A stretch of DNA of 64,000 bases from a virus. Positions 6,045 through 25,561 of this stretch are shown here, piece after piece. The notes under the pieces are model-generated. The model saw only the letters and a program-made list of their open reading frames with translations. It did no database searches and had not been told where the DNA came from. Location: positions 11,658 to 75,657 of the IMG/VR virus record IMGVR_UViG_3300025425_000009; one strand, 5' to 3'. The position numbers were made by a program, and so were the translations under genes. Each line of letters starts with the position of its first letter. Position 1 is the first letter of the stretch.

Positions 6045-6878
6045 ATGGAACGACCATTTAACTTAAAATTTGATGACACACTCACAGGACATGCGGAGTC
6101 ATCATTTAAACTAGAAAGAATATCACCATCTATGATGGGTACCTACACATCATGTCCTCTTGCATTCTACTACGGGTACATAGCAAAGATAGAGATACCA
6201 CAGTCCAGACTGCATTTGCTGTTTGGTAGTGCAATTCACTTAGCGTTAGAATACATGTACAACGATGGCAAGGACCCGCATGAAACATTTGCAGAGCACT
6301 TTAAAAGGGAGGATCTGGACCCTGAAGGGCAGTTATCCTTTTCGGAGTACTACATGCTAGGTGTAGAGATGGTAAAGAACTATGTAGATGCAAAGCCAGC
6401 CATAGATGCTGCTTACGGTTTAGACAAGGCAGACACTGAACTTAAGGTGAAGGAATTCATCACCCACCCAATCACAGGCAAGCAGTCTAGTGTCAAGTTC
6501 TCAGGAATCCTCGATGTGCTTACACACGGTCATAAGATTGTGGATTACAAGACATCGAAGACTAAGTGGAAGACAAGTGAAGCCCGGTTTAAGCTCCAAA
6601 GCCGCATGTACAATCTTTGGTATTTGTCAAGGTTCGGCAAAATTGCTGATGAGACAGTGTGGATCATTTTACTAAAGAAGTTTAAGAAAACATCAAGAGA
6701 TGAGGTAATTCAGTTTCTGTCTTACAAGCCATCTATAGATGACCTTGCCGCAACATTTGAGGAGATGGAAGCAATTGTTGAAAAGATTGAAACTGGCAAC
6801 TTCGAAAGACCAACCAAAGGTCACCCACCGTATTGTGATTGTTACAAATACGAAAGGTATCTAGGGATTACTAGTTAG
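6045..6878 (+). CDS. PD-(D/E)XK exonuclease (RecB/Cas4-like)
   Basis: SPS..CP, FGSAIH, GILD..IVDYKT, QSRMY, C-terminal CDC. Confidence 0.85.
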   Translation: MERPFNLKFDDTLTGHAESSFKLERISPSMMGTYTSCPLAFYYGYIAKIEIPQSRLHLLFGSAIHLALEYMYNDGKDPHETFAEHFKREDLDPEGQLSFSEYYMLGVEMVKNYVDAKPAIDAAYGLDKADTELKVKEFITHPITGKQSSVKFSGILDVLTHGHKIVDYKTSKTKWKTSEARFKLQSRMYNLWYLSRFGKIADETVWIILLKKFKKTSRDEVIQFLSYKPSIDDLAATFEEMEAIVEKIETGNFERPTKGHPPYCDCYKYERYLGITS

Positions 6879-8962: not shown

Positions 8963-9877
8963 ATGACAAATCGACAAACTGATCAGCAGGAACTTCACAA
9001 TAAAGAATCAGCCGTGGCGGAATCTGCGTTTAGAGAAATCTACACCAGGCTAAGCCACCTTGGTGTTGAAGTTGCCCCTCGCGGTTATAAGGTTCTGGAA
9101 TGTGAGGACTTCTCATTCCTGCTACCTAAGTATGTCAGGTTTGCCAATTTCCAAGTACGAAAACTCAACCTAGATTACATCAAGGCTGAGTTTCTTTGGT
9201 ATTTGAACGGCGACCCTGGTAACACCCGGATAGGCAAGTATGCATCAACATGGAACCCACTCATCAATCCTGACGGAACAATCAACTCTAACTACGGGCA
9301 GTACATCTTCGGACAACAGGACCAGTTCGCAATAACAAGACAAACCCTAAGGGATGACAAAGACTCAAGACGTGCTTCAATTGTTATTCTGTCTCAGGCC
9401 CACCTGGCTTCTGACACAAAGGATGTGCCTTGCACTTACTCTATCAACTTTAGGATCAGGGATAACAAGCTAAACATGAGTATACGCATGAGATCCCAAG
9501 ATGCAATATTCGGGTTTGGTAACGACACACCTTGTTTTAGTCTAGTACATGAGATGATGTACATGAGCCTTAAGGCGGATTATCCTGATCTTGAGCATGG
9601 ATCATACCATCATACTGCTGATTCCTTCCATGTGTATGAACGTCATTTTGCCATGTTCCACGCCATCACTGCAGGTGGCCTAAGCAAGGCAAAGTATGAG
9701 CACATCGCAATTCCTAAGATATCCTCCCATGCGGAAGTTGAATTCCTAAGAACAGGGGATTTCTCTCATATACCAGATGAGTATGAGTTTTCAAAGTGGC
9801 TAACATTTTTCGAGAACGAGAAGTACAAAGATGCGTTAGCTGATCTAGGCAAGCCTACTAATATGACATTGTTCTAA
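8963..9877 (+). CDS. dCMP hydroxymethylase (T4 gp42-like, thymidylate synthase fold)
   Basis: INSNYG, catalytic PCT, MRSQDAIFGFGND with Asp at the base-specificity position. Confidence 0.82.
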   Translation: MTNRQTDQQELHNKESAVAESAFREIYTRLSHLGVEVAPRGYKVLECEDFSFLLPKYVRFANFQVRKLNLDYIKAEFLWYLNGDPGNTRIGKYASTWNPLINPDGTINSNYGQYIFGQQDQFAITRQTLRDDKDSRRASIVILSQAHLASDTKDVPCTYSINFRIRDNKLNMSIRMRSQDAIFGFGNDTPCFSLVHEMMYMSLKADYPDLEHGSYHHTADSFHVYERHFAMFHAITAGGLSKAKYEHIAIPKISSHAEVEFLRTGDFSHIPDEYEFSKWLTFFENEKYKDALADLGKPTNMTLF

Positions 9878-10870: not shown

Positions 10871-13504
10871 ATGTCAAAACCAGATTACTCAAACATTAAC
10901 GCACTGACCGCATGGGATGAAGGCAAGGACATTAAGATTGCTTGCAAAATCAAGGATGATAAAACAGGGAACTGGTCGCGTGGTGTCAAGACTATATCTG
11001 GGTTTGAATGGTACTTCGCCCTTAGCGCCAAGGATGTGGAAAAGAAGGTAGTCAAACTACTCATAAACAACTACTACGATAAAGGTGTGGTTGTGCGTAT
11101 TGAGGATTACAAGGACGACTGGGTCAAGGTGTACTGCAACAAAGAATCAACTGATGTAAGGTACGGCACAGGTACAAGTTCCAACGTTAAGTATCTGATC
11201 CAGGACTTGAAAAGGGAAGGAGTTGTATTGTATGAGTCTGACCTTTCTATGTGGAAGCGATTCTGCATTGATAACAAAATTGATGTTGCAGGTAATCTTG
11301 ATATACTTTACTTCGATATTGAGACAGATGACACCCATGACGGTATAGAGATTGGTGCACACACTATTCTTTCTTGGGCAGCTATGAACTCCAACGGTGA
11401 TGAGTTCTTCTGGCTTAACGAGGAATCTACCGGAGGAGAACCTGGGCTGCTGAAAGGGTTCCTGAACCTAATGACAGATCATGACCTTATATCAGGTTGG
11501 AATTCAGGAGGGTTTGACCTACCTTATATACAAGGAAGGCTAGAGTTTCACAACATAGACCCAGGCGATATGTTCAAAAAGAAACTGCACATAGATCTTA
11601 TGCAAAGATGTGCAAAGGTGTACAGCTATGAAATGTTTAACATTGGCTTGAAAGGTTTCTCCTTGAATGAAGTGTCCAGGGTGTTCCTTGGCGCACAAAA
11701 GGTTGAGCATGAGGAAGGCATTATGGAGATGTATCTCAACAACCCAGAACTCCTTGAAGAGTATAACAGACAAGATGTTAAGCTACTGTTTGACTTGGAC
11801 AACAAACTCCTAATCACTGATTTGATGATCAAGGAGTGTCAGTGGACAGGTGCGTTCCTGGATAGGTTCTACATTGGCGAGTTGCTTGATAACTATATAT
11901 TGAGACGTACTCATGAAATGGGGTTCTTCCAACACGCTAGGCCTGATTGGAATGAGAAACAGTCCTTAGACAACATCTCTATTCGTGGAGGGTTTGTTAT
12001 GGCACCTGTACCAGGTGTTTATGATGGTGTTAGAGTATTCGATTTCAAATCACTGTACCCGTCAATCATGGTGGGGTTCAATATAGGACGTGATTCACTC
12101 AACAAGGAACTGTCAGATCATGGGTTTGTAGCTATGTCACAGTTTCTTAGAACAGGCACTAAGGACGAGATCAAGGTTGAACTAGTTGATTTTGGCCAGT
12201 GGAAAGCATTCCTAGAATCAGAGAAAGCAAGGTTGGATCCTAAAGATGAGCACATACAAACAGCCAACAACGCATTCTTTTCCAAAAGTAAGATATCATT
12301 CGTCGGTGACCTTGTTCAGCACCTATTGAATCTTAGGGCAGACTGGAAAGCACAGGCAAAAGGGATGGACAAAGATGATCCTGAGTATGTTAACATCCAG
12401 CAGTCACAAGGTATTGTGAAGGAGATGGCTAACTCTATGTATGGTATCACAGGTGACAAGGGTAGTCGCTACTTTGATCAGAGTGTTGCAGAGGCTATCA
12501 CCTTGACAGGTCAGTTCCTCAACCGTTTGTCATCTCACTTTGCACAGAGGCACGGGTACTCAACAATCTACGGAGATACTGACTCCATCTTTGTGCCTAT
12601 CGCTAGTGATGAAGGTACAACCTCCTTAGTTGCGAAGGTAGAGGCTGATCTTAAGGAGTACTTGGAAAGTCATGTCGGTGTTACCAACAACATCATAGAA
12701 CTTGAGTATGAAAAGAAGTTTAGCAGAATGATCATGCTAGATAAGAAGCGGTATGCTGGTAAGATGGTGCTGTACGATGGGTATGCTACTGATAAAATAT
12801 TTTCACGCGGTACAGAGAACATCAAAAAGAACACAATTAGAATCACCCGTGAAGCGTTGGTTGAGCTAATCCACTGGGTGGTTGATGATGATACTGACAT
12901 TTCAGTAGCTAAGGCAAAGACGTGGGTTGAATCACTTATGAGTAAGATGCTTAACGATGATATAGATCCAGATGATCTTAACATGATTATCAAGGTGTCG
13001 AAACCACCATCTAAGTACAAATCAAAGCCACTCCACGTCAGGCTAGCAGAACGGCTGATCAATGCTGGTATGTTACCACCTATCATAGAAGGAAAGAGGT
13101 CGTGGGGTACAAGACTAGATTACATAGTGGTCAAAGATCCTGAGACAGGTAAACAAGAAGGTATACTTCGTGAAGAGTGGGCAGGTGTTTGGGACAGGCA
13201 ATACTACTGGGAGGTGCAAGTGTACGCACCTATCAGGCGGTTCCTAGAGGTTGTGTTTCCTAGTGAGGACTGGGGGATCTACTCCATTGAGGAGCAGGAC
13301 AAAATCAAGAGAAAGAAGGACAGGGAGGAATCGAAGATACTCAAGTTTATAGATCTAGAAGAAAAGAGAAAGACAAGGCATATCAAAAAAGCAGAGATGA
13401 CTGCAAAGAAACAGAAGGCCCTTGAGGATAAGGAAAAGGCAAAGAATGAAAAGCGCCGTAACGCGATATTGGCCAAGATCAATAAGACCAAAGAGGCAAG
13501 CTAA
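10871..13504 (+). CDS. polB: Family B DNA polymerase
   Basis: FDIET, FDLPY, DFKSLYPS, KEMANSMYG, YGDTDS, KKRY. Confidence 0.95.
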   Translation: MSKPDYSNINALTAWDEGKDIKIACKIKDDKTGNWSRGVKTISGFEWYFALSAKDVEKKVVKLLINNYYDKGVVVRIEDYKDDWVKVYCNKESTDVRYGTGTSSNVKYLIQDLKREGVVLYESDLSMWKRFCIDNKIDVAGNLDILYFDIETDDTHDGIEIGAHTILSWAAMNSNGDEFFWLNEESTGGEPGLLKGFLNLMTDHDLISGWNSGGFDLPYIQGRLEFHNIDPGDMFKKKLHIDLMQRCAKVYSYEMFNIGLKGFSLNEVSRVFLGAQKVEHEEGIMEMYLNNPELLEEYNRQDVKLLFDLDNKLLITDLMIKECQWTGAFLDRFYIGELLDNYILRRTHEMGFFQHARPDWNEKQSLDNISIRGGFVMAPVPGVYDGVRVFDFKSLYPSIMVGFNIGRDSLNKELSDHGFVAMSQFLRTGTKDEIKVELVDFGQWKAFLESEKARLDPKDEHIQTANNAFFSKSKISFVGDLVQHLLNLRADWKAQAKGMDKDDPEYVNIQQSQGIVKEMANSMYGITGDKGSRYFDQSVAEAITLTGQFLNRLSSHFAQRHGYSTIYGDTDSIFVPIASDEGTTSLVAKVEADLKEYLESHVGVTNNIIELEYEKKFSRMIMLDKKRYAGKMVLYDGYATDKIFSRGTENIKKNTIRITREALVELIHWVVDDDTDISVAKAKTWVESLMSKMLNDDIDPDDLNMIIKVSKPPSKYKSKPLHVRLAERLINAGMLPPIIEGKRSWGTRLDYIVVKDPETGKQEGILREEWAGVWDRQYYWEVQVYAPIRRFLEVVFPSEDWGIYSIEEQDKIKRKKDREESKILKFIDLEEKRKTRHIKKAEMTAKKQKALEDKEKAKNEKRRNAILAKINKTKEAS

Positions 13505-18233: not shown

Positions 18234-18714
18234 GCAATATCTAGGCATTGACGGAGGTCATGCTGGAGCACTAACTGTAATAGAAGGTGACTCTGTAGTT
18301 GAAAAGATTGTCATGCCTATTCAAAAAACATCTGCTAGCAGGAATGAGTACAACTGCTTTGATATAATAACTTTTCTGAACAAGTACCCTGATGCCACAG
18401 TAGTGTTTGAAAAGGCACACGCTATGCCACAGCTTGGGTCTGTTCAGGCATTTAACTTCGGCAAGGGGTTTGGCATGATGATAGGTATCCTCACTGCCTT
18501 AAAAATGAAGTTTCATATTGTGCATGCAAAGACATGGCAATCTGAAATGTTCAAAGATCTACCTAAGCAAGACACAAAAGCTATGAGTTGCATGGTGGCA
18601 CAGCGACTGTTTCCTAGCGAAGACTTTACTCCTACAGAGCGTAGCAACAAACTACATGACGGGTTTACTGACTCTGTGTTACTAGCTGAGTTTGGTAGAC
18701 GCAGAAACTTATAA
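18226..18714 (+). CDS. RuvC-like Holliday junction resolvase
   Basis: LGIDGG, VFEK, FNFGKGFG, HDGFTDSVL. Confidence 0.8.
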   Translation: MAKQYLGIDGGHAGALTVIEGDSVVEKIVMPIQKTSASRNEYNCFDIITFLNKYPDATVVFEKAHAMPQLGSVQAFNFGKGFGMMIGILTALKMKFHIVHAKTWQSEMFKDLPKQDTKAMSCMVAQRLFPSEDFTPTERSNKLHDGFTDSVLLAEFGRRRNL

Positions 18715-19625: not shown

Positions 19626-21095
19626 ATGACAAGATTTAACAAACCACAGCAGAATACTACGGAAAACCATGAAGGGTCCACAGCATTCATGCATTCACCT
19701 GAATTGCAGCTGTATTCGTTGGTTGTGACTTGCATGGTCAGTGATAAGTTTTACGAATCATCTGATGATCAACTGGTTCGACTAAGAGGTCTTCTACCTA
19801 CAGTAGACCCTAAGTTTGCTGTACAACTTGCAATTTATGCTAGAGAAGAGATGCATCTAAGAACAATACCTCTTGTTCTAATGATAGAGCTAGCCAGGAT
19901 CCACTCAGGTGACAACCTTGTTTCCCAAGGTGTTGGTAGAGTGATTCAGAGGGTTGATGAAATAACAGAAATGCTTGCGTATTACTGTGCTGCTAACAAC
20001 CGTAATGATGTTGCTCCGTTGTCTAAGCAAATTCAGAAGGGGTTACAGGTGGCGTTTAACAAGTTCAATCACTACCAGTTTGCCAAGTACAACAGGCCTG
20101 GTAAGGTGACACTTAAAGATGCACTGTTCATTGTTAGACCGAGCAGTGATACGTTCAAGCAGTCAGAAGTGTTTGCAATGATTGCATCAGGCACGCTTGG
20201 ATCAGCAGACACATGGGAAACCTCTCTGTCCTCAGGGCTAGATAAGAAAGAAGCATGGGAGGAGTTAATCATGAATGACAAGCTTGGTTACATGGCCATG
20301 ATGAGAAACCTAAGAAACTTCGTACAGGCAGGCATCTCTAAGGATGCACTAGTTAAGGTGTGCCAATTCATATCTGCTAAGGAACGGGTACTTGCGTCTA
20401 AGCAACTCCCATTTAGATTCTACTCAGCGTATAGAATGTTGAAAGAGGTGGAAGGTGACGGGGTGACGATGATCCTAGACTCTCTGAATAAGGCAGTCAA
20501 GCATTCAATAGCCAACATACCTTTTTTCAGTGAAACCGAAAGTGTCATGATTGCATGTGACGTATCTGCATCAATGATGGTGCCTCTGTCTGACAAGAGC
20601 GTAGTTGAGTATTACGATGTAGGTCTCCTTCTTGGGTCTTTACTTCAGGCCAACTCCAACTTCGTCCAGACAGGACTGTTCGGAGATACATTCAAGGTGT
20701 ACCCAATGGCATCCACCAACATACTGGAGAATGCTTGCCAGCTAAGAAGGTGTGAAGGCGATGTAGGTTACGCTACAAACGGTCACACTGTTATTGAGTA
20801 TCTGACCCAGACAGGTAAGAGTGTTGACAAAGTCGTTATGTTTACTGACTGTCAGATGACTGATTCATCATACGACGGACGTGCCCTTAGTGCAGCTTGG
20901 AACCAGTACAAAACACAACACCCTAACTCCAAATTATACATTTTCAACTTGTCAGGCTATGGCAAGGAAGTGTTCTCACAACATGCCAATGACATTTTTC
21001 AAGTGGCTGGTTGGAGTGAAAAAATATTTGATATGCTTCATTCGTTGGAATCAGGGGACTCAGTTATTTCAACAATTCAAAAAATTAGTATATAA
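19626..21095 (+). CDS. rsr: Ro60/Rsr (TROVE + vWA) RNA-binding protein
   Basis: YAREEMHLRT, QFAKYNR, TWET, LGYMAMMRNLRN, SKQLPFRFYSAY, vWA MIDAS DVSAS and FTD. Confidence 0.93.
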   Translation: MTRFNKPQQNTTENHEGSTAFMHSPELQLYSLVVTCMVSDKFYESSDDQLVRLRGLLPTVDPKFAVQLAIYAREEMHLRTIPLVLMIELARIHSGDNLVSQGVGRVIQRVDEITEMLAYYCAANNRNDVAPLSKQIQKGLQVAFNKFNHYQFAKYNRPGKVTLKDALFIVRPSSDTFKQSEVFAMIASGTLGSADTWETSLSSGLDKKEAWEELIMNDKLGYMAMMRNLRNFVQAGISKDALVKVCQFISAKERVLASKQLPFRFYSAYRMLKEVEGDGVTMILDSLNKAVKHSIANIPFFSETESVMIACDVSASMMVPLSDKSVVEYYDVGLLLGSLLQANSNFVQTGLFGDTFKVYPMASTNILENACQLRRCEGDVGYATNGHTVIEYLTQTGKSVDKVVMFTDCQMTDSSYDGRALSAAWNQYKTQHPNSKLYIFNLSGYGKEVFSQHANDIFQVAGWSEKIFDMLHSLESGDSVISTIQKISI

Positions 21096-21100
21096 TACTA

Positions 21101-21238
21101 GTACTAGGTGCTGTAGAAAACAGTTACTTCCACTTTAAGGACAAGGTCGGTGGTTCGATTCCACCTCAACACTTCGGTGTTGATAGCTCAATGGTAGAGC
21201 ATGTATAACACACCTGTTTTCGCTTGTTGCCCTAGTAC
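21101..21238 (+). ncRNA. Y RNA (YrlA-like) with a tRNA-mimic domain
   Basis: termini pair (GTACTAGG/CCTAGTAC, GAAAACAG/CTGTTTTC); internal T arm, TTCG-closed acceptor stem and D arm; directly follows Ro60. Confidence 0.88.
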
Positions 21239-21240
21239 AT

Positions 21241-21314
21241 ACCTTTATAGCTTAGTGGTAAAGCAGGCGGCTTTTAACCGTCCGACCTAAGTTCGATTCT
21301 TAGTGGGGGTACCA
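21241..21314 (+). tRNA. tRNA-Lys(TTT)
   Basis: cloverleaf, anticodon loop CTTTTAA, CCA encoded. Confidence 0.9.
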
Positions 21315-22249: not shown

Positions 22250-22822
22250 ATGATAATCTACACCAGGAAAAAAGAAATACAGTTTGCACAGACCTCAAGT
22301 GAAATAGAAGGAGAACTCTCTGAAAGTGCATGGCAGGACCATCTTGATGCGTGGGACTTCCTTAAGGAAACTGATACCGTGTCTTTGCATGATCTGTTAG
22401 AATGCCACTACGGGCTGCAAATACGGCTGAGACCTGACATTGCCGGTAAGTTTAGAACATGCAATGTTAGGGTCGGCTCCCACATAATGCCTCATTATGC
22501 CAGTGTTGTAGCAATGACACGCGCATGGCTGCGTAAGTGGACAGGCAGCAAGTTGCCTAAGACTGAGGAAGAGTGTAGGACTGCTCATATAGAGTTTGAG
22601 AATATACACCCCTTTGAAGATGGCAACGGTAGAGTAGGCCGGTGTATACTGAATTGGCACAGGCGTAAGCTAAACCTGCCGATTCTGATTATCCATGTAG
22701 GTGAAGAGCAGCAGGCATATTACGGCTGGTTCAAAGAGGCACAAAACAGTGATGCACTTTATAAAACACTAGGCAGTGACTGTGTCAGATCCTACACAAA
22801 GAAGTTTACCAAAAAGAGATAA
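22250..22822 (+). CDS. Fic-domain protein
   Basis: intact HPFEDGNGRVGR motif. Confidence 0.9.
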   Translation: MIIYTRKKEIQFAQTSSEIEGELSESAWQDHLDAWDFLKETDTVSLHDLLECHYGLQIRLRPDIAGKFRTCNVRVGSHIMPHYASVVAMTRAWLRKWTGSKLPKTEEECRTAHIEFENIHPFEDGNGRVGRCILNWHRRKLNLPILIIHVGEEQQAYYGWFKEAQNSDALYKTLGSDCVRSYTKKFTKKR

Positions 22823-23019
22823 CTCACACCACATGACCACAAAAGATAAATCTGTTGAACCAGAAGACAAGACAAACAGGGCAGGCCGAAGAGCAAGTGC
22901 AAAACAGCGTCGTGGAGTGGCTGAGCATAACCGCAAGTACAAATTAGCTGTACACTTGAATGACGGTAGCACAGCAAAGCGAAAGAGATTACAAGCACTA
23001 TGTAAAAACACGTAAGAAT

Positions 23020-24036
23020 ATGGCAAAGAAAGCAACAAGCAAAGGCACAATCTCAGATGCACTTGCAATACTGGAAAAGAAGCATGGTAAAGGTGCTGTT
23101 ATGAAGTTGGCAAAAGGGGAACAGATCACCAAGGTTGAGCTGCTTCCTACAGGTATTTATTCTATCGACAAGGCACTAGGTGGAGGGTTTGCAAGAGGAA
23201 GAGTGGTAGAGCTGTACGGAAATGAAGGGTCCGGTAAGACTACCCTTGCACTGCAGACCATCGCTAAAGCCCAGGCCGATGGACTTAAGGCTGCTTTCAT
23301 AGATGTGGAACACGCGTTCAGTCTGCAATATGCCAGATCTTTAGGAGTTGACCTAGAAGAGTTGTATTTTTCACAGCCTAAGTCAGCAGAGATGGCGATG
23401 GACATTGCCAAGACACTTGCCCAAACAGGCGAGTTTGCTGTGGTGGTAGTTGACTCAGTGGCAGCATTAACACCTGACACAGAGTTTGATGGAGAGATAG
23501 GTAAGGCACAGATAGGGCACCTTGCTAGATTCATGTCGGCTGCACTAAGGCAGATTGTTGGTGAGTTCCACAAGACAGGCACATCACTTATTTTTATCAA
23601 CCAGCTCAGAATGAAAATTGGTGTAATGTTCGGAAACCCTGAGACAACACCTGGTGGAAATGCACTAAAGTATTATGCATCACAGCGACTTGCTATACGT
23701 AAGTCTACAAAGATAGATAATAAGGAAGGTGTCACCATAGGGTACAACGCACTCATTAGAGTAGAGAAAAACAAGATAGCGCTACCTAACATTAAAGCAA
23801 CTGTGCCTGTGACAAATGGTAAAGGGTTTGACAAGGTTGCTGACATGTTCCAGGTTGCGGAATTACTTAATGTCATAACTAAGGAGAAGGCGTCCTACTT
23901 TTTCAATGGTGAGAAACTTGGAGTGTACGAGGTAAACGCAAAACAGGCACTGTACGACAGTCTAGACATATACACAGCAATAGAAGAAGCAGTCATAGCG
24001 TTAAACAACCCTGATGAAAGCGCTAACATAGTATAG
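23020..24036 (+). CDS. recA: RecA recombinase
   Basis: GNEGSGKTT, VVDSVAAL, FINQLRMKIGVMFGNPETTPGGNALK; start taken at MAKK. Confidence 0.95.
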   Translation: MAKKATSKGTISDALAILEKKHGKGAVMKLAKGEQITKVELLPTGIYSIDKALGGGFARGRVVELYGNEGSGKTTLALQTIAKAQADGLKAAFIDVEHAFSLQYARSLGVDLEELYFSQPKSAEMAMDIAKTLAQTGEFAVVVVDSVAALTPDTEFDGEIGKAQIGHLARFMSAALRQIVGEFHKTGTSLIFINQLRMKIGVMFGNPETTPGGNALKYYASQRLAIRKSTKIDNKEGVTIGYNALIRVEKNKIALPNIKATVPVTNGKGFDKVADMFQVAELLNVITKEKASYFFNGEKLGVYEVNAKQALYDSLDIYTAIEEAVIALNNPDESANIV

Positions 24037-24038
24037 CA

Positions 24039-24557
24039 ATGAAAACAACAGAAGAATTTAAAGATGAGTTTCCGAAGACTTACAAGGAGATTAGATCTGC
24101 AGAGTTAAGAAAACAGCAAAGCAACAAGGCAGACACTGAGTGTTCCCATCGATGCTGGATTAAGAAGTGTAGTTTTTGCTCAGTGATCATGGAGTCAGAC
24201 AGCCAGGTAAACTACAAATGCGGGGAGGATGTTAAAACGGAGTTTAGTGTACTGACAGGCATAGTGACAAACTTCAATGTATCTGAGAAACTACAAAACC
24301 GCAGGATCGGCCAGAGAACTAAGTTATATTGGGTCTACTCCCCTGTGAATGATGAGATTGGACTTAGATGTTATGAGAATGTGTCAATACAACACACTCA
24401 AATAATTGCTGCATACTCATCATCTGAGTTAGTGGCAAAACTACGTAGGTTACCTGTAGAAATCATGACAGATGAGGTCTACCTTTATATAGGACAGAAC
24501 GCGTTTGACCCTAACCGACTTGCTAGGCTATATCTTAAACTAACAGCAGTACAGTAA
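24039..24557 (+). CDS. hypothetical protein
   Basis: packed ORF. Confidence 0.55.
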   Translation: MKTTEEFKDEFPKTYKEIRSAELRKQQSNKADTECSHRCWIKKCSFCSVIMESDSQVNYKCGEDVKTEFSVLTGIVTNFNVSEKLQNRRIGQRTKLYWVYSPVNDEIGLRCYENVSIQHTQIIAAYSSSELVAKLRRLPVEIMTDEVYLYIGQNAFDPNRLARLYLKLTAVQ

Positions 24558-24652
24558 AGGTCACCTCAACAACATTCACGAGGCCCAGCCTGCACCTTAG
24601 GCGGGTGTGGCACAGGAAAGGGTTAGAATATACCTCTACTGCACATAACAAC

Positions 24653-24699
24653 GTTGTTAACATGTCACAATGTGCATCTCCAAGAGAACGTGGTATAAT
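24653..24699 (+). promoter_or_regulatory. Boxed promoter of the second tRNA/Y-RNA cluster
   Basis: GTTGTTAACA, TGTGCA-17-TATAAT. Confidence 0.72.
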
Positions 24700-24719
24700 A
24701 GTTATATCTTGGAGGAAAT

Positions 24720-24791
24720 TGACCTGTAGCCAAGTGGTAAGGCAAGGGATTGTTACTCCCTGTACCGCAGGTTCGAATCCTGCCGGGTCAG
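24720..24791 (+). tRNA. tRNA-Asn(GTT)
   Basis: cloverleaf, anticodon loop TTGTTAC. Confidence 0.9.
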
Positions 24792-24886
24792 CAAGGTTAA
24801 ATCTCATAGATTCGCTTATTGAAAGTAAGTGTATTGTAAATACACCGACCTATGAGTACCTATGCAACACACTAGTGTGTCTGCTA

Positions 24887-25062
24887 AGACGGTGCTGTAG
24901 ACAACAGTTACTTCTACATCTTCAGAAAAAACAATAATGCATAGCATGCTAAACTTCGGTTTACATGCATAATGAGTGTAGGTTAAGCCTGCGCCTTCTC
25001 TGGTAAAGCAGAGTCGTACTAGAGTATTCACTCTTATCACTGTTGTCGATTGTTGCCCGTTT
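24887..25062 (+). ncRNA. second Y RNA with a non-tRNA effector domain
   Basis: same GGTGCTGTAGAnAACAGTTACTTC...CTGTTnTCGnTTGTTGCCC stem as Y RNA 1, with a compensatory A-T to C-G change. Confidence 0.82.
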
Positions 25063-25066
25063 GATT

Positions 25067-25140
25067 GCTCTGTTAGTTCAATAGGAGAACGCTACCTTGT
25101 CACGGTAGTAACGTCGGAGCGTAACCGTCACAGAGCGCCA
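25067..25140 (+). tRNA. tRNA-Asp(GTC)
   Basis: anticodon loop TTGTCAC; atypical T loop AGCGTAA; CCA encoded. Confidence 0.85.
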
Positions 25141-25183: not shown

Positions 25184-25414
25184 ATGATTAAACAATTAAA
25201 AAATGATGATGCTGCACTTATCAAAGAGATTGGGATTAAATCATTGTCCAGAGTTGTAGGGTACAATGAGAATGGGGAGCCCGTTGAGTTAGTGTACGTA
25301 AAACATTCAGATACAGGATACGAGTGGCATGTAGGAGGGGAATATCAGAGTGATGCATCACTAAGGTCAGTAGAGAAATATGCACACAGGCTGAATCATT
25401 GCCTATTGGTCTAG
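25184..25414 (+). CDS. hypothetical protein
   Basis: A-rich leader; stop codon lies inside tRNA-Gln. Confidence 0.55.
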   Translation: MIKQLKNDDAALIKEIGIKSLSRVVGYNENGEPVELVYVKHSDTGYEWHVGGEYQSDASLRSVEKYAHRLNHCLLV

Positions 25415-25486: not shown

Positions 25487-25561
25487 GGGCGATTGGTGAT
25501 AATAGTAGCACATCCGCCTTGCACGCGGAAGGCGACGGAGCGTAACCGTCATTGTCCACCA
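25487..25561 (+). tRNA. tRNA-Ala(TGC)
   Basis: G3:U70, anticodon loop CTTGCAC, T loop AGCGTAA, CCA encoded. Confidence 0.88.

What the first reader, a model, noticed from the sequence alone, without database searches (positions are those of the whole stretch)
24887..25062. Second, distant Y RNA: same Ro-binding stem, new effector domain
Seen: the stem is nearly identical to Y RNA 1, with a compensatory pair change (GAAAACAG/CTGTTTTC becomes GACAACAG/CTGTTGTC). The tRNA mimic is replaced by an A-rich linker, a TTCG hairpin and a GAGTG/CACTC-closed multibranch domain. It lies 3.8 kb from Ro60 under another promoter. Known: Y RNAs tether Ro60 to effector proteins such as PNPase. Inference: interchangeable RNA adaptors redirect the phage Ro60 to different partners.
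Basis: partly seen in the sequence, partly recalled or inferred. Interest (0 to 1): 0.78.

Follow-up and report, generated by a model that had tools for sequence, protein, structure and literature searches.

The report
Second Y RNA of a Ro60 phage
A salt-lake phage that encodes the RNA-binding ring protein Ro60 carries a second partner RNA (Y RNA) 3.8 kb away, inside its tRNA gene cluster; it has the same protein-binding stem as the first but an unrelated body, and I found many such partner RNAs per Ro60 gene at other loci, so it is a new member of a known kind.

Summary
Window 24889-25060 (+) has the terminal stem of a Y RNA. A covariance model built only from 26 Y RNAs of other Ro60-encoding viral contigs hits two places in the whole 75.7-kb phage: Y RNA 1 (21105-21234, 60.1 bits) and this one (55.5 bits, E 1.6e-12); the next hit scores 15.8 bits. 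Against Y RNA 1, three base pairs changed on both sides and none broke.

The 122-nt body is not a tRNA mimic, matches no Rfam family, and has no relative in about 2.4 Mb of Ro60 loci.

Several Y RNAs per Ro60 gene is normal: 69 stems in 27 viral loci, 316 in 80 metagenome loci, 88 in 22 Bacteroidota genomes, and none in 1.27 Mb of control viral DNA. Second Y RNAs without a tRNA module are published (YrlB, Yrn2, phage phiLo Yrl1/Yrl2). This scan has also noted shared-stem RNA arrays beside Ro60 or Ro60-like genes on other DNA.

Ro60 binding, a discrete transcript and a distinct partner remain untested; no RNA run was listed. Verdict: real, a new member of a known kind, moderate interest.

The parts
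24889..25060 (+). Y RNA 2, whole (172 nt): terminal stem plus 122-nt body
   Evidence: R1 covariance model 55.5 bits, E 1.6e-12, full-length match to the model (whole genome). MFE -50.9 kcal/mol.
24889..24914 (+). 5' arm. Lower helix 24889-24892 and 24894-24895 with bulged U24893. Conserved loop UGUA 24896-24899. Upper helix 24900-24908. Near-invariant UACUUC at 24909-24914.
   Evidence: 25/27 identical to Y RNA 1. All positions that are near-invariant in 150 metagenome Y RNAs are kept except position 8, which is U here and in Y RNA 1 but C in 149/150.
25037..25060 (+). 3' arm. Upper-helix strand 25039-25047, conserved CGAUUGUU loop, lower-helix strand 25055-25060.
   Evidence: Pairs with the 5' arm at 14/14 model pairs. 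Family covariation: 13 of 14 pairs change on both sides and about 98% of cells are paired.
24915..25036 (+). Body ('effector' module). A-rich single strand 24924-24938 (AGAAAAAACAAUAAU). Hairpin 1 24944-24968 (UUCG loop 24955-24958). Hairpin 2 24976-24994. Hairpin 3 24998-25013. Hairpin 4 25021-25034.
   Evidence: MFE and pair probabilities. No Rfam family at E<=10. Model R2 of the body finds only itself (160.5 bits; next 16.9 and 16.5) in 2.4 Mb of Ro60 loci. No significant similarity to the body of Y RNA 1 or to other bodies.
21105..21234 (+). Y RNA 1, a YrlA-type tRNA mimic (T-arm, UUCG-closed acceptor-like stem, D-arm)
   Evidence: R1 60.1 bits. Rfam YrlA RF02553 36.6 bits, below the gathering score of 69. 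It starts 9 nt after the Ro60 stop and ends 6 nt before tRNA-Lys.
19626..21095 (+). Ro60 (TROVE + vWA) gene, the presumed protein partner of both RNAs
   Evidence: Pfam TROVE 5.5e-29 and vWA_Ro60 1.1e-6. PHROG 850 RNA-binding protein. PDB 9KOP/9L5Y phage phiLo Ro60, 3e-24. About 50% identity to Bacteroidota Ro60.
24691..24699 (+). Extended -10 promoter-like site TGGTATAAT, candidate start of the transcription unit that holds Y RNA 2
   Evidence: 12 TGNTATAAT sites in the window against 2.5 expected, with strands that follow gene orientation. This is a consensus match only.
24720..24792 (+). tRNA-Asn (GUU), upstream neighbour in the same unit
   Evidence: ARAGORN; Rfam tRNA 67.2 bits.
25067..25137 (+). 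tRNA-like gene (anticodon GUC, atypical T-loop) that starts 6 nt after the Y RNA 2 stem. It is the likely site of the RNase P cut that would free the 3' end of Y RNA 2.
   Evidence: Rfam tRNA 50.7 bits; not called by ARAGORN. The same 6-nt spacing separates Y RNA 1 from tRNA-Lys at 21241. The cut itself is inferred.

Best explanation
Window 24889-25060 encodes a genuine second Y RNA of this phage. Shown: it carries the full stem signature of the Y RNA family that sits beside Ro60 genes of this (Bacteroidota-like) clade. That signature is a lower helix with a bulged U, a conserved G-Y-C/U-G-U-A-G loop, an 8-9 bp upper helix, UACUUC, and ...CGNNUGUU-NCCC on the 3' side. It lies on the Ro60 strand within 4 kb of the gene, and all helices are kept through two-sided changes relative to Y RNA 1. 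Inferred: it is transcribed with tRNA-Asn and the downstream tRNA-like gene from the extended -10 site at 24691. It is then cut out by tRNA-processing enzymes (RNase P 6 nt beyond its stem, nucleases on the 5' side), and the phage Ro60 binds its stem as it binds Y RNA 1. Its 122-nt body replaces the tRNA mimic of Y RNA 1 with an A-rich single strand and four hairpins. So the same Ro60 ring would be gated by, or tethered through, a different RNA surface, for instance an exoribonuclease such as PNPase that grips single-stranded RNA, as in the known Ro60-Y RNA-PNPase complexes. The confidence given is for 'real Y RNA that binds the phage Ro60'. A distinct partner for the body I put at about 0.35.
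For: Model R1, trained on 26 Y RNAs of other viral contigs with no window sequence, hits only Y RNA 1 (60.1 bits) and Y RNA 2 (55.5 bits) in the window with filters off and in the whole genome; the next hit scores 15.8 bits. The family stem is real RNA structure: 98% of cells are paired, 13/14 pairs covary, 0/500 shuffles reach the covariation score, and slid controls give 42-63% paired, in two alignments. The lower helix was not a selection criterion and is 95.5% paired with 6/6 pairs covarying. The stem is tied to Ro60: 69 hits in 0.46 Mb of viral Ro60 loci, all on the Ro60 strand, 316 in 0.87 Mb of metagenome Ro60 loci, 88 in 22 Bacteroidota loci, and 0 at E<=1 in 1.27 Mb of viral loci chosen for RecA. 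There are three two-sided changes and no broken pair between Y RNA 1 and Y RNA 2. Both share the rare U at position 8, which is C in 149/150 family members, as expected for two ligands of one protein or a recent duplication. Position and strand meet the published criterion (within 4 kb, same strand; PMC4201824). Distal Y RNAs 2-5 kb from Ro60, and Y RNAs interleaved with tRNA genes, occur in other loci. [quoted passage not shown]
Against: There is no expression evidence. Ro60 binding is not tested. The published motif GNCGAAN0-1G is not met literally: GCUGUAG here, GYCGUAG in the clade. The body has no relative, so its fold and any function are unsupported by comparison. The phage has no close relative in any collection searched, so conservation of Y RNA 2 itself cannot be shown. 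The promoter and the processing sites are consensus or spacing arguments only.
Confidence: 0.8

Rival explanations
1. The stem is only a Ro60-dependent stabilising handle. The body would act on its own, as a base-pairing or protein-sponging small RNA (for instance through the A-rich AGA-AAA-AAC-AAU-AAU tract, which fits the A-R-N repeat bound by the distal face of Hfq). Alternatively it merely gates the Ro60 cavity. In neither case would it recruit a distinct effector.
For: The A-rich single strand is predicted to be largely unpaired. A-rich loops follow the 5' arm in many short family members. Chen et al. 2014 leave the role of non-tRNA Y RNAs open. The A-R-N/Hfq rule is from my own knowledge, not tested here.
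Against: No target complementarity was sought or found, and the host is unknown. Tethering is the only mechanism shown for bacterial and phage Y RNAs so far.
Confidence: 0.12
2. Y RNA 2 is a decaying duplicate of Y RNA 1. Its tRNA-like body was replaced by unrelated sequence and it no longer functions.
For: The arms are unusually alike, with only one upper-helix pair different, which suggests a recent copy. The body is an orphan.
Against: All three differences in the helices are compensated on both sides, and every near-invariant family position is kept. The body is strongly structured (z -3.7). The sequence is identical in contigs from at least two further salt-lake samples. Its model score is close to that of Y RNA 1.
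Confidence: 0.05
3. It is not an RNA gene. It would be a DNA-level inverted repeat (recombination or regulatory site) or a protein-coding stretch: ORFs 24605-24937 (+) and 24816-25040 (-) overlap it.
For: Two mechanical ORFs overlap the region.
Against: Neither ORF matches any PHROG family, and the + ORF also runs through tRNA-Asn. The family helices hold many G-U pairs and occur only on the Ro60 strand, which is a property of RNA, not of DNA palindromes.
Confidence: 0.03

Closest known systems
Non-tRNA second Y RNAs of bacteria: S. Typhimurium YrlB, M. smegmatis YrlB, D. radiodurans Yrn2 (Chen et al. 2014, PMC4201824)
   Same: A second Ro60-associated RNA encoded near rsr on the same strand. 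It shares the Ro-binding stem with the tRNA-like Y RNA but lacks the full tRNA mimic, and it has been proposed to widen the range of Ro60 complexes.
   Different: [quoted passage not shown] This one has a 122-nt body of four hairpins plus an A-rich strand, and it lies 3.8 kb away inside a tRNA gene cluster.
Thermus phage phiLo Yrl1 and Yrl2 with phiLo Ro60 (PMC12135203; PDB 9KOP, 9L5Y)
   Same: A phage-encoded Ro60 with two phage-encoded Y RNA-like RNAs. Binding and a complex with host PNPase were shown there. The window's Ro60 matches the phiLo protein at E 3e-24.
   Different: The phiLo RNAs lie directly upstream of Ro60 and were picked by a CGAA motif. Here the loop motif is UGUAG, one RNA is a tRNA mimic, the other is large, and the two are 3.8 kb apart.
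YrlA (Rfam RF02553)
   Same: Y RNA 1 of this phage is of this type (36.6 bits, full-length alignment). Y RNA 2 shares its stem.
   Different: Y RNA 2 has no T-arm or D-arm and gives no YrlA hit even at E<=10.
Metazoan Y RNA sets (e.g. human Y1, Y3, Y4, Y5; Rfam RF00019)
   Same: Several RNAs share one conserved Ro60-binding stem and differ in the loop region that binds other proteins (own knowledge; cited).
   Different: There is no sequence relation. The metazoan motif is GGUCCGA with a bulged C, and the RNAs are made by RNA polymerase III.

Membership tests
Bacterial/phage Y RNA (Ro60 ligand) | Long stem formed by the 5' and 3' ends that carries the conserved Ro-binding helix and loop | tested here: met
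   R1 (trained without window sequences) 55.5 bits, E 1.6e-12, all 14 model pairs formed. The family stem covaries.
Bacterial/phage Y RNA (Ro60 ligand) | GNCGAAN0-1G motif near the 5' end (Chen et al. 2014) | tested here: not met
   The sequence is GCUGUAG. The consensus for this Ro60 clade is GYCGUAG, with C at position 8 in 149/150. This is a clade-specific variant of the motif, shared with Y RNA 1, not a literal match.
Bacterial/phage Y RNA (Ro60 ligand) | Encoded within about 4 kb of the Ro60 gene on the same strand | tested here: met
   3.79 kb downstream, + strand. The criterion is quoted.
Bacterial/phage Y RNA (Ro60 ligand) | Physical binding to Ro60, and Ro60-dependent accumulation | not testable with these tools
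   Needs EMSA or co-immunoprecipitation.
Bacterial/phage Y RNA (Ro60 ligand) | Discrete stable transcript | not testable with these tools
   The runs that could be laid here are DNA contigs, which cannot show a transcript.
YrlA subfamily (RF02553) | tRNA-like module: T-arm, acceptor-like stem, D-arm | tested here: not met
   No RF02553 or tRNA hit at E<=10 on 24795-25066. No T-loop motif. The body alignment to Y RNA 1 is not above shuffles: 136/500 shuffles score as high.
YrlB/Yrn2-type Y RNA | [quoted passage not shown] | tested here: not met
   The body is 122 nt with four hairpins and an A-rich strand.

The most novel reading that the evidence does not exclude
The orphan four-hairpin body of Y RNA 2 recruits a partner different from that of the tRNA-mimic Y RNA 1. 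The phage would then use one Ro60 ring with two RNA adaptors, made from two transcription units, to aim it at two different host or phage RNA-processing activities during infection. One of the two would be co-regulated with the phage's tRNA supply.
Probability: 0.3. Interest if true: 0.6.

Novelty: new member of a known kind. Interest (0 to 1): 0.4.

Why it matters
What the non-tRNA Y RNAs of bacteria and phages do is still open, and only a few have been studied. This case offers a clean pair for experiment: one small phage Ro60, two RNAs with near-identical stems, and wholly different bodies made from different transcription units. The wider result may matter more than this single RNA. A simple stem model recovers several hundred Y RNAs, typically about four per locus and up to about nine, with very diverse bodies, beside Ro60 genes of Bacteroidota and their phages. 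About 3-19% of them, depending on the sample, are large non-tRNA forms like this one. That is a ready catalogue for asking whether Y RNA bodies are interchangeable adaptors. It does not change what a Y RNA is understood to be.

Tried and rejected
- Relatives of the RNA by DNA similarity: blastn of Y RNA 2 and Y RNA 1 against GenBank phages found nothing. Exact-pattern scans of IMG/VR with the 5' arm and with two hairpins of the body gave 0 hits.
- Close relatives of the phage by protein: Ro60 as a single query in IMG/VR found none. The nearest Ro60 in 5.8 billion proteins is 52% identical. RecA relatives reach at most 50%. So no orthologue of Y RNA 2 could be compared.
- Expression: no RNA holder listed.
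- Natural variation: contigs of four salt-lake DNA runs are identical over Y RNA 2, so there is no variation to test pairing.
- Known RNA families for the body: none in Rfam at E<=10.
- Homologues of the body: blastn-short against other Y RNA bodies gave only 8-11-nt chance matches. Covariance model R2 found only itself.
- Common origin of the two bodies: the local alignment scores 40 against 37.4 +/- 4.4 in shuffles. The UUCG hairpin sits at a similar offset in both, but this is not significant. Rejected.
- Coding potential of the overlapping ORFs: no PHROG family.
- The generic sigma-70 scan found nothing convincing upstream of Y RNA 2, and no terminator.
- The 2020 Annual Review on bacterial Ro60 (PMC10870794) and the supplements of Chen et al. 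2014 are not held. I therefore could not check how many Y RNAs per genome were already tabulated.

Full report
**What is there.** The window is bases 11658-75657 of a 75.7-kb IMG/VR virus record. DNA runs from salt-lake metagenomes hold the stretch. ORF 19626-21095 (+) is a Ro60: Pfam TROVE 5.5e-29 and vWA_Ro60, PHROG 850, and PDB phage phiLo Ro60 at 3e-24. Nine bases after its stop lies Y RNA 1 (21105-21234). This is a YrlA-type tRNA mimic with a T-arm, a UUCG-closed acceptor-like stem and a D-arm. It aligns over the full length of Rfam RF02553 but scores 36.6 bits, below the gathering score of 69. About 21 tRNA genes follow on the same strand.

**The finding's stretch.** It sits in a 626-nt non-coding gap between ORFs 24039-24557 and 25184-25414. 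In order, the gap holds:
- tRNA-Asn (24720-24792)
- a nested hairpin (24803-24856)
- the candidate (24889-25060)
- six bases later, a tRNA-like gene with anticodon GUC (25067-25137; Rfam tRNA 50.7 bits, not called by ARAGORN)

**Check of the observation.**
- The 5' arms of the two RNAs agree at 25 of 27 bases, and the 3' arms are also nearly the same.
- The terminal helix holds two more such changes (UAGG/CCUA to ACGG/CCGU).
- No pair is broken.
- The stretch folds at -52.9 kcal/mol, z -3.7.

**An independent test of membership.**
- I fetched 27 IMG/VR loci that encode Ro60 relatives. A simple scan found the same kind of stem in most of them, often several per locus.
- I aligned 26 of these, none from the window (A2). 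The two helices are 98% paired and 13 of 14 pairs change on both sides. No shuffle out of 500 reaches the covariation score, and slid controls give 51-63% paired.
- My scan had demanded a perfect upper helix, so only the lower helix is unbiased. It is 95.5% paired with all six pairs covarying.
- The covariance model R1 built from A2, run on the window with filters off, finds Y RNA 1 (60.1 bits, E 9e-14) and the candidate (55.5 bits, E 1.6e-12). The next hit scores 15.8 bits. The whole genome gives the same two.
- R1 is specific to Ro60 loci. It gives 69 hits in the 27 viral loci, all on the Ro60 strand, and none at E<=1 in 1.27 Mb of 80 viral loci fetched through RecA.
- It gives 316 hits in 80 metagenome Ro60 loci and 88 in 22 named Bacteroidota genomes.
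- An alignment of 150 metagenome hits repeats the covariation result (97.9% paired). That alignment is fitted to the model and so leans towards it.
- The alignment also gives the family consensus: NNGGUG-Y-C-GUAG, helix, (U/A)UACUUCG ... helix, CG-NN-UGUU-N-CCC-NN.
- The candidate keeps every near-invariant position except position 8. There it and Y RNA 1 both have U, where 149 of 150 family members have C.
- I conclude that the candidate is a member of this Y RNA family and a sister of Y RNA 1.

**The body.**
- Bases 24915-25036 have no T-loop or D-arm and match no Rfam family at E<=10. They are no more similar to the body of Y RNA 1 than shuffled sequence is.
- The minimum-energy fold has a largely unpaired A-rich tract (24924-24938) followed by four hairpins. 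The first is closed by UUCG. Pair probabilities are about 0.8-0.99.
- A covariance model of the body (R2) finds only itself (160.5 bits; next 16.9 and 16.5) in about 2.4 Mb of Ro60 loci that hold several hundred Y RNA stems. Short-word blastn and exact-pattern scans of IMG/VR also find nothing.
- The body is therefore an orphan. Its fold is a prediction without comparative support.

**Context.**
- Several Y RNAs per Ro60 gene is the norm in this clade, with up to eight or nine per locus (L012, L198) and sizes from 59 to 322 nt.
- Of 150 metagenome Y RNAs, 98 carry a T-loop motif, 28 are mini-hairpins of 75 nt or less, and 7 exceed 150 nt, five of them without a T-loop.
- Among the 69 viral hits, 13 are 158 nt or longer.
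- Y RNAs 2-5 kb from Ro60 also occur elsewhere (for example L117, L129, L168, L031). In L012 they are interleaved with tRNA genes.
- So neither the distance, nor the tRNA setting, nor a large non-tRNA body is unique. The last is uncommon.

**Expression and processing (inferred).**
- TGNTATAAT occurs 12 times in the window against 2.5 expected, on the strand of the local genes. One copy (24691-24699) lies 20 nt before tRNA-Asn, and the previous one on this strand is at 18360.
- Y RNA 2 is therefore probably made with tRNA-Asn and the tRNA-like gene, apart from the Ro60 and Y RNA 1 unit.
- Both Y RNAs end exactly six bases before a tRNA 5' end. This suggests that RNase P defines their 3' sides, and processing of Y RNAs from a joint precursor is known in M. 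smegmatis.

**Comparison with what is known.**
- Chen et al. 2014 showed at least two Y RNAs in each of three bacteria, one tRNA-like and one a simple hairpin. They proposed that the extra ones let Ro60 join more partners, and they used 'within 4 kb, same strand' as their criterion.
- Phage phiLo Ro60 binds two phage Y RNA-like RNAs and forms a complex with host PNPase.
- The present RNA is thus a new member of a known kind. It is distinguished by an orphan multi-hairpin body and by its place in a tRNA operon.
- The published GNCGAAN0-1G motif is not met literally. The clade uses GYCGUAG and this phage uses GCUGUAG.
- Earlier notes of this scan describe shared-stem RNA arrays beside Ro60 or Ro60-like genes in other genomes. 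The theme is recurrent in the scan.

Noticed in passing
window 24803-24856 (+): A nested hairpin between tRNA-Asn and Y RNA 2 gives a weak partial match to Rfam DUF3800-I RNA (26.1 bits, gathering 44.2, model positions 30-81 of 115; E 0.039 in a 272-nt search). It may be a leader or processing element of the same transcript, or a chance match.
   Followed up: partly
window 25067-25137 and 25487-25558 (+): Two tRNA-like genes are scored by Rfam (50.7 and 42.5 bits) but not called by ARAGORN. The first has anticodon GUC, an encoded CCA and an atypical T-loop (AGCGUAA). It may be a variant tRNA or a tRNA-derived RNA.
   Followed up: no
L014, about 11640-11790 (IMGVR_UViG_3300021471_000012): A tRNA-shaped RNA (acceptor stem, D-arm, T-arm) whose anticodon-arm position holds a circularly permuted Y stem: 3' arm, UCUC loop, then 5' arm. 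R1 hits 11697-11738 at 25 bits.
   Followed up: partly
L009-L035, L116-L195, L196-L275: Ro60 genes of Bacteroidota and of many uncultured phages are flanked by several same-strand Y RNAs, up to about nine, with highly diverse bodies. Counts: 69 in 27 viral loci, 316 in 80 metagenome loci, 88 in 22 named genomes (for example Xanthocytophaga flavus 9, Emticicia 7). I could not check whether this has been tabulated in print.
   Followed up: partly
family-wide; window 24909-24914 and 21125-21130: A near-invariant UACUUC(G) directly after the upper helix (146-149 of 150 sequences per position) is as conserved as the presumed Ro-binding loop. It is not part of the published motif, and its role is unknown.
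   Followed up: no
L012 6120-9313 (IMGVR_UViG_640196209_000005): Eight Y RNAs are interleaved with tRNA genes. Two of them end 12 nt before a tRNA (6208 to 6221; 9224 to 9237), echoing the 6-nt spacing of both window Y RNAs.
   Followed up: partly
window, 12 sites from 18360 to 57907: The extended -10 motif TGNTATAAT is about five-fold enriched (12 against 2.5 expected). It switches strand together with the genes between about 33 and 34 kb, so it is probably the phage's main promoter type.
   Followed up: partly
window 22250-24036 (+): A Fic/DOC-domain protein (22250-22822) and a RecA-family recombinase (22960-24036) lie between the two Y RNAs. The recombinase has no viral relative above 50% identity.
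   Followed up: no
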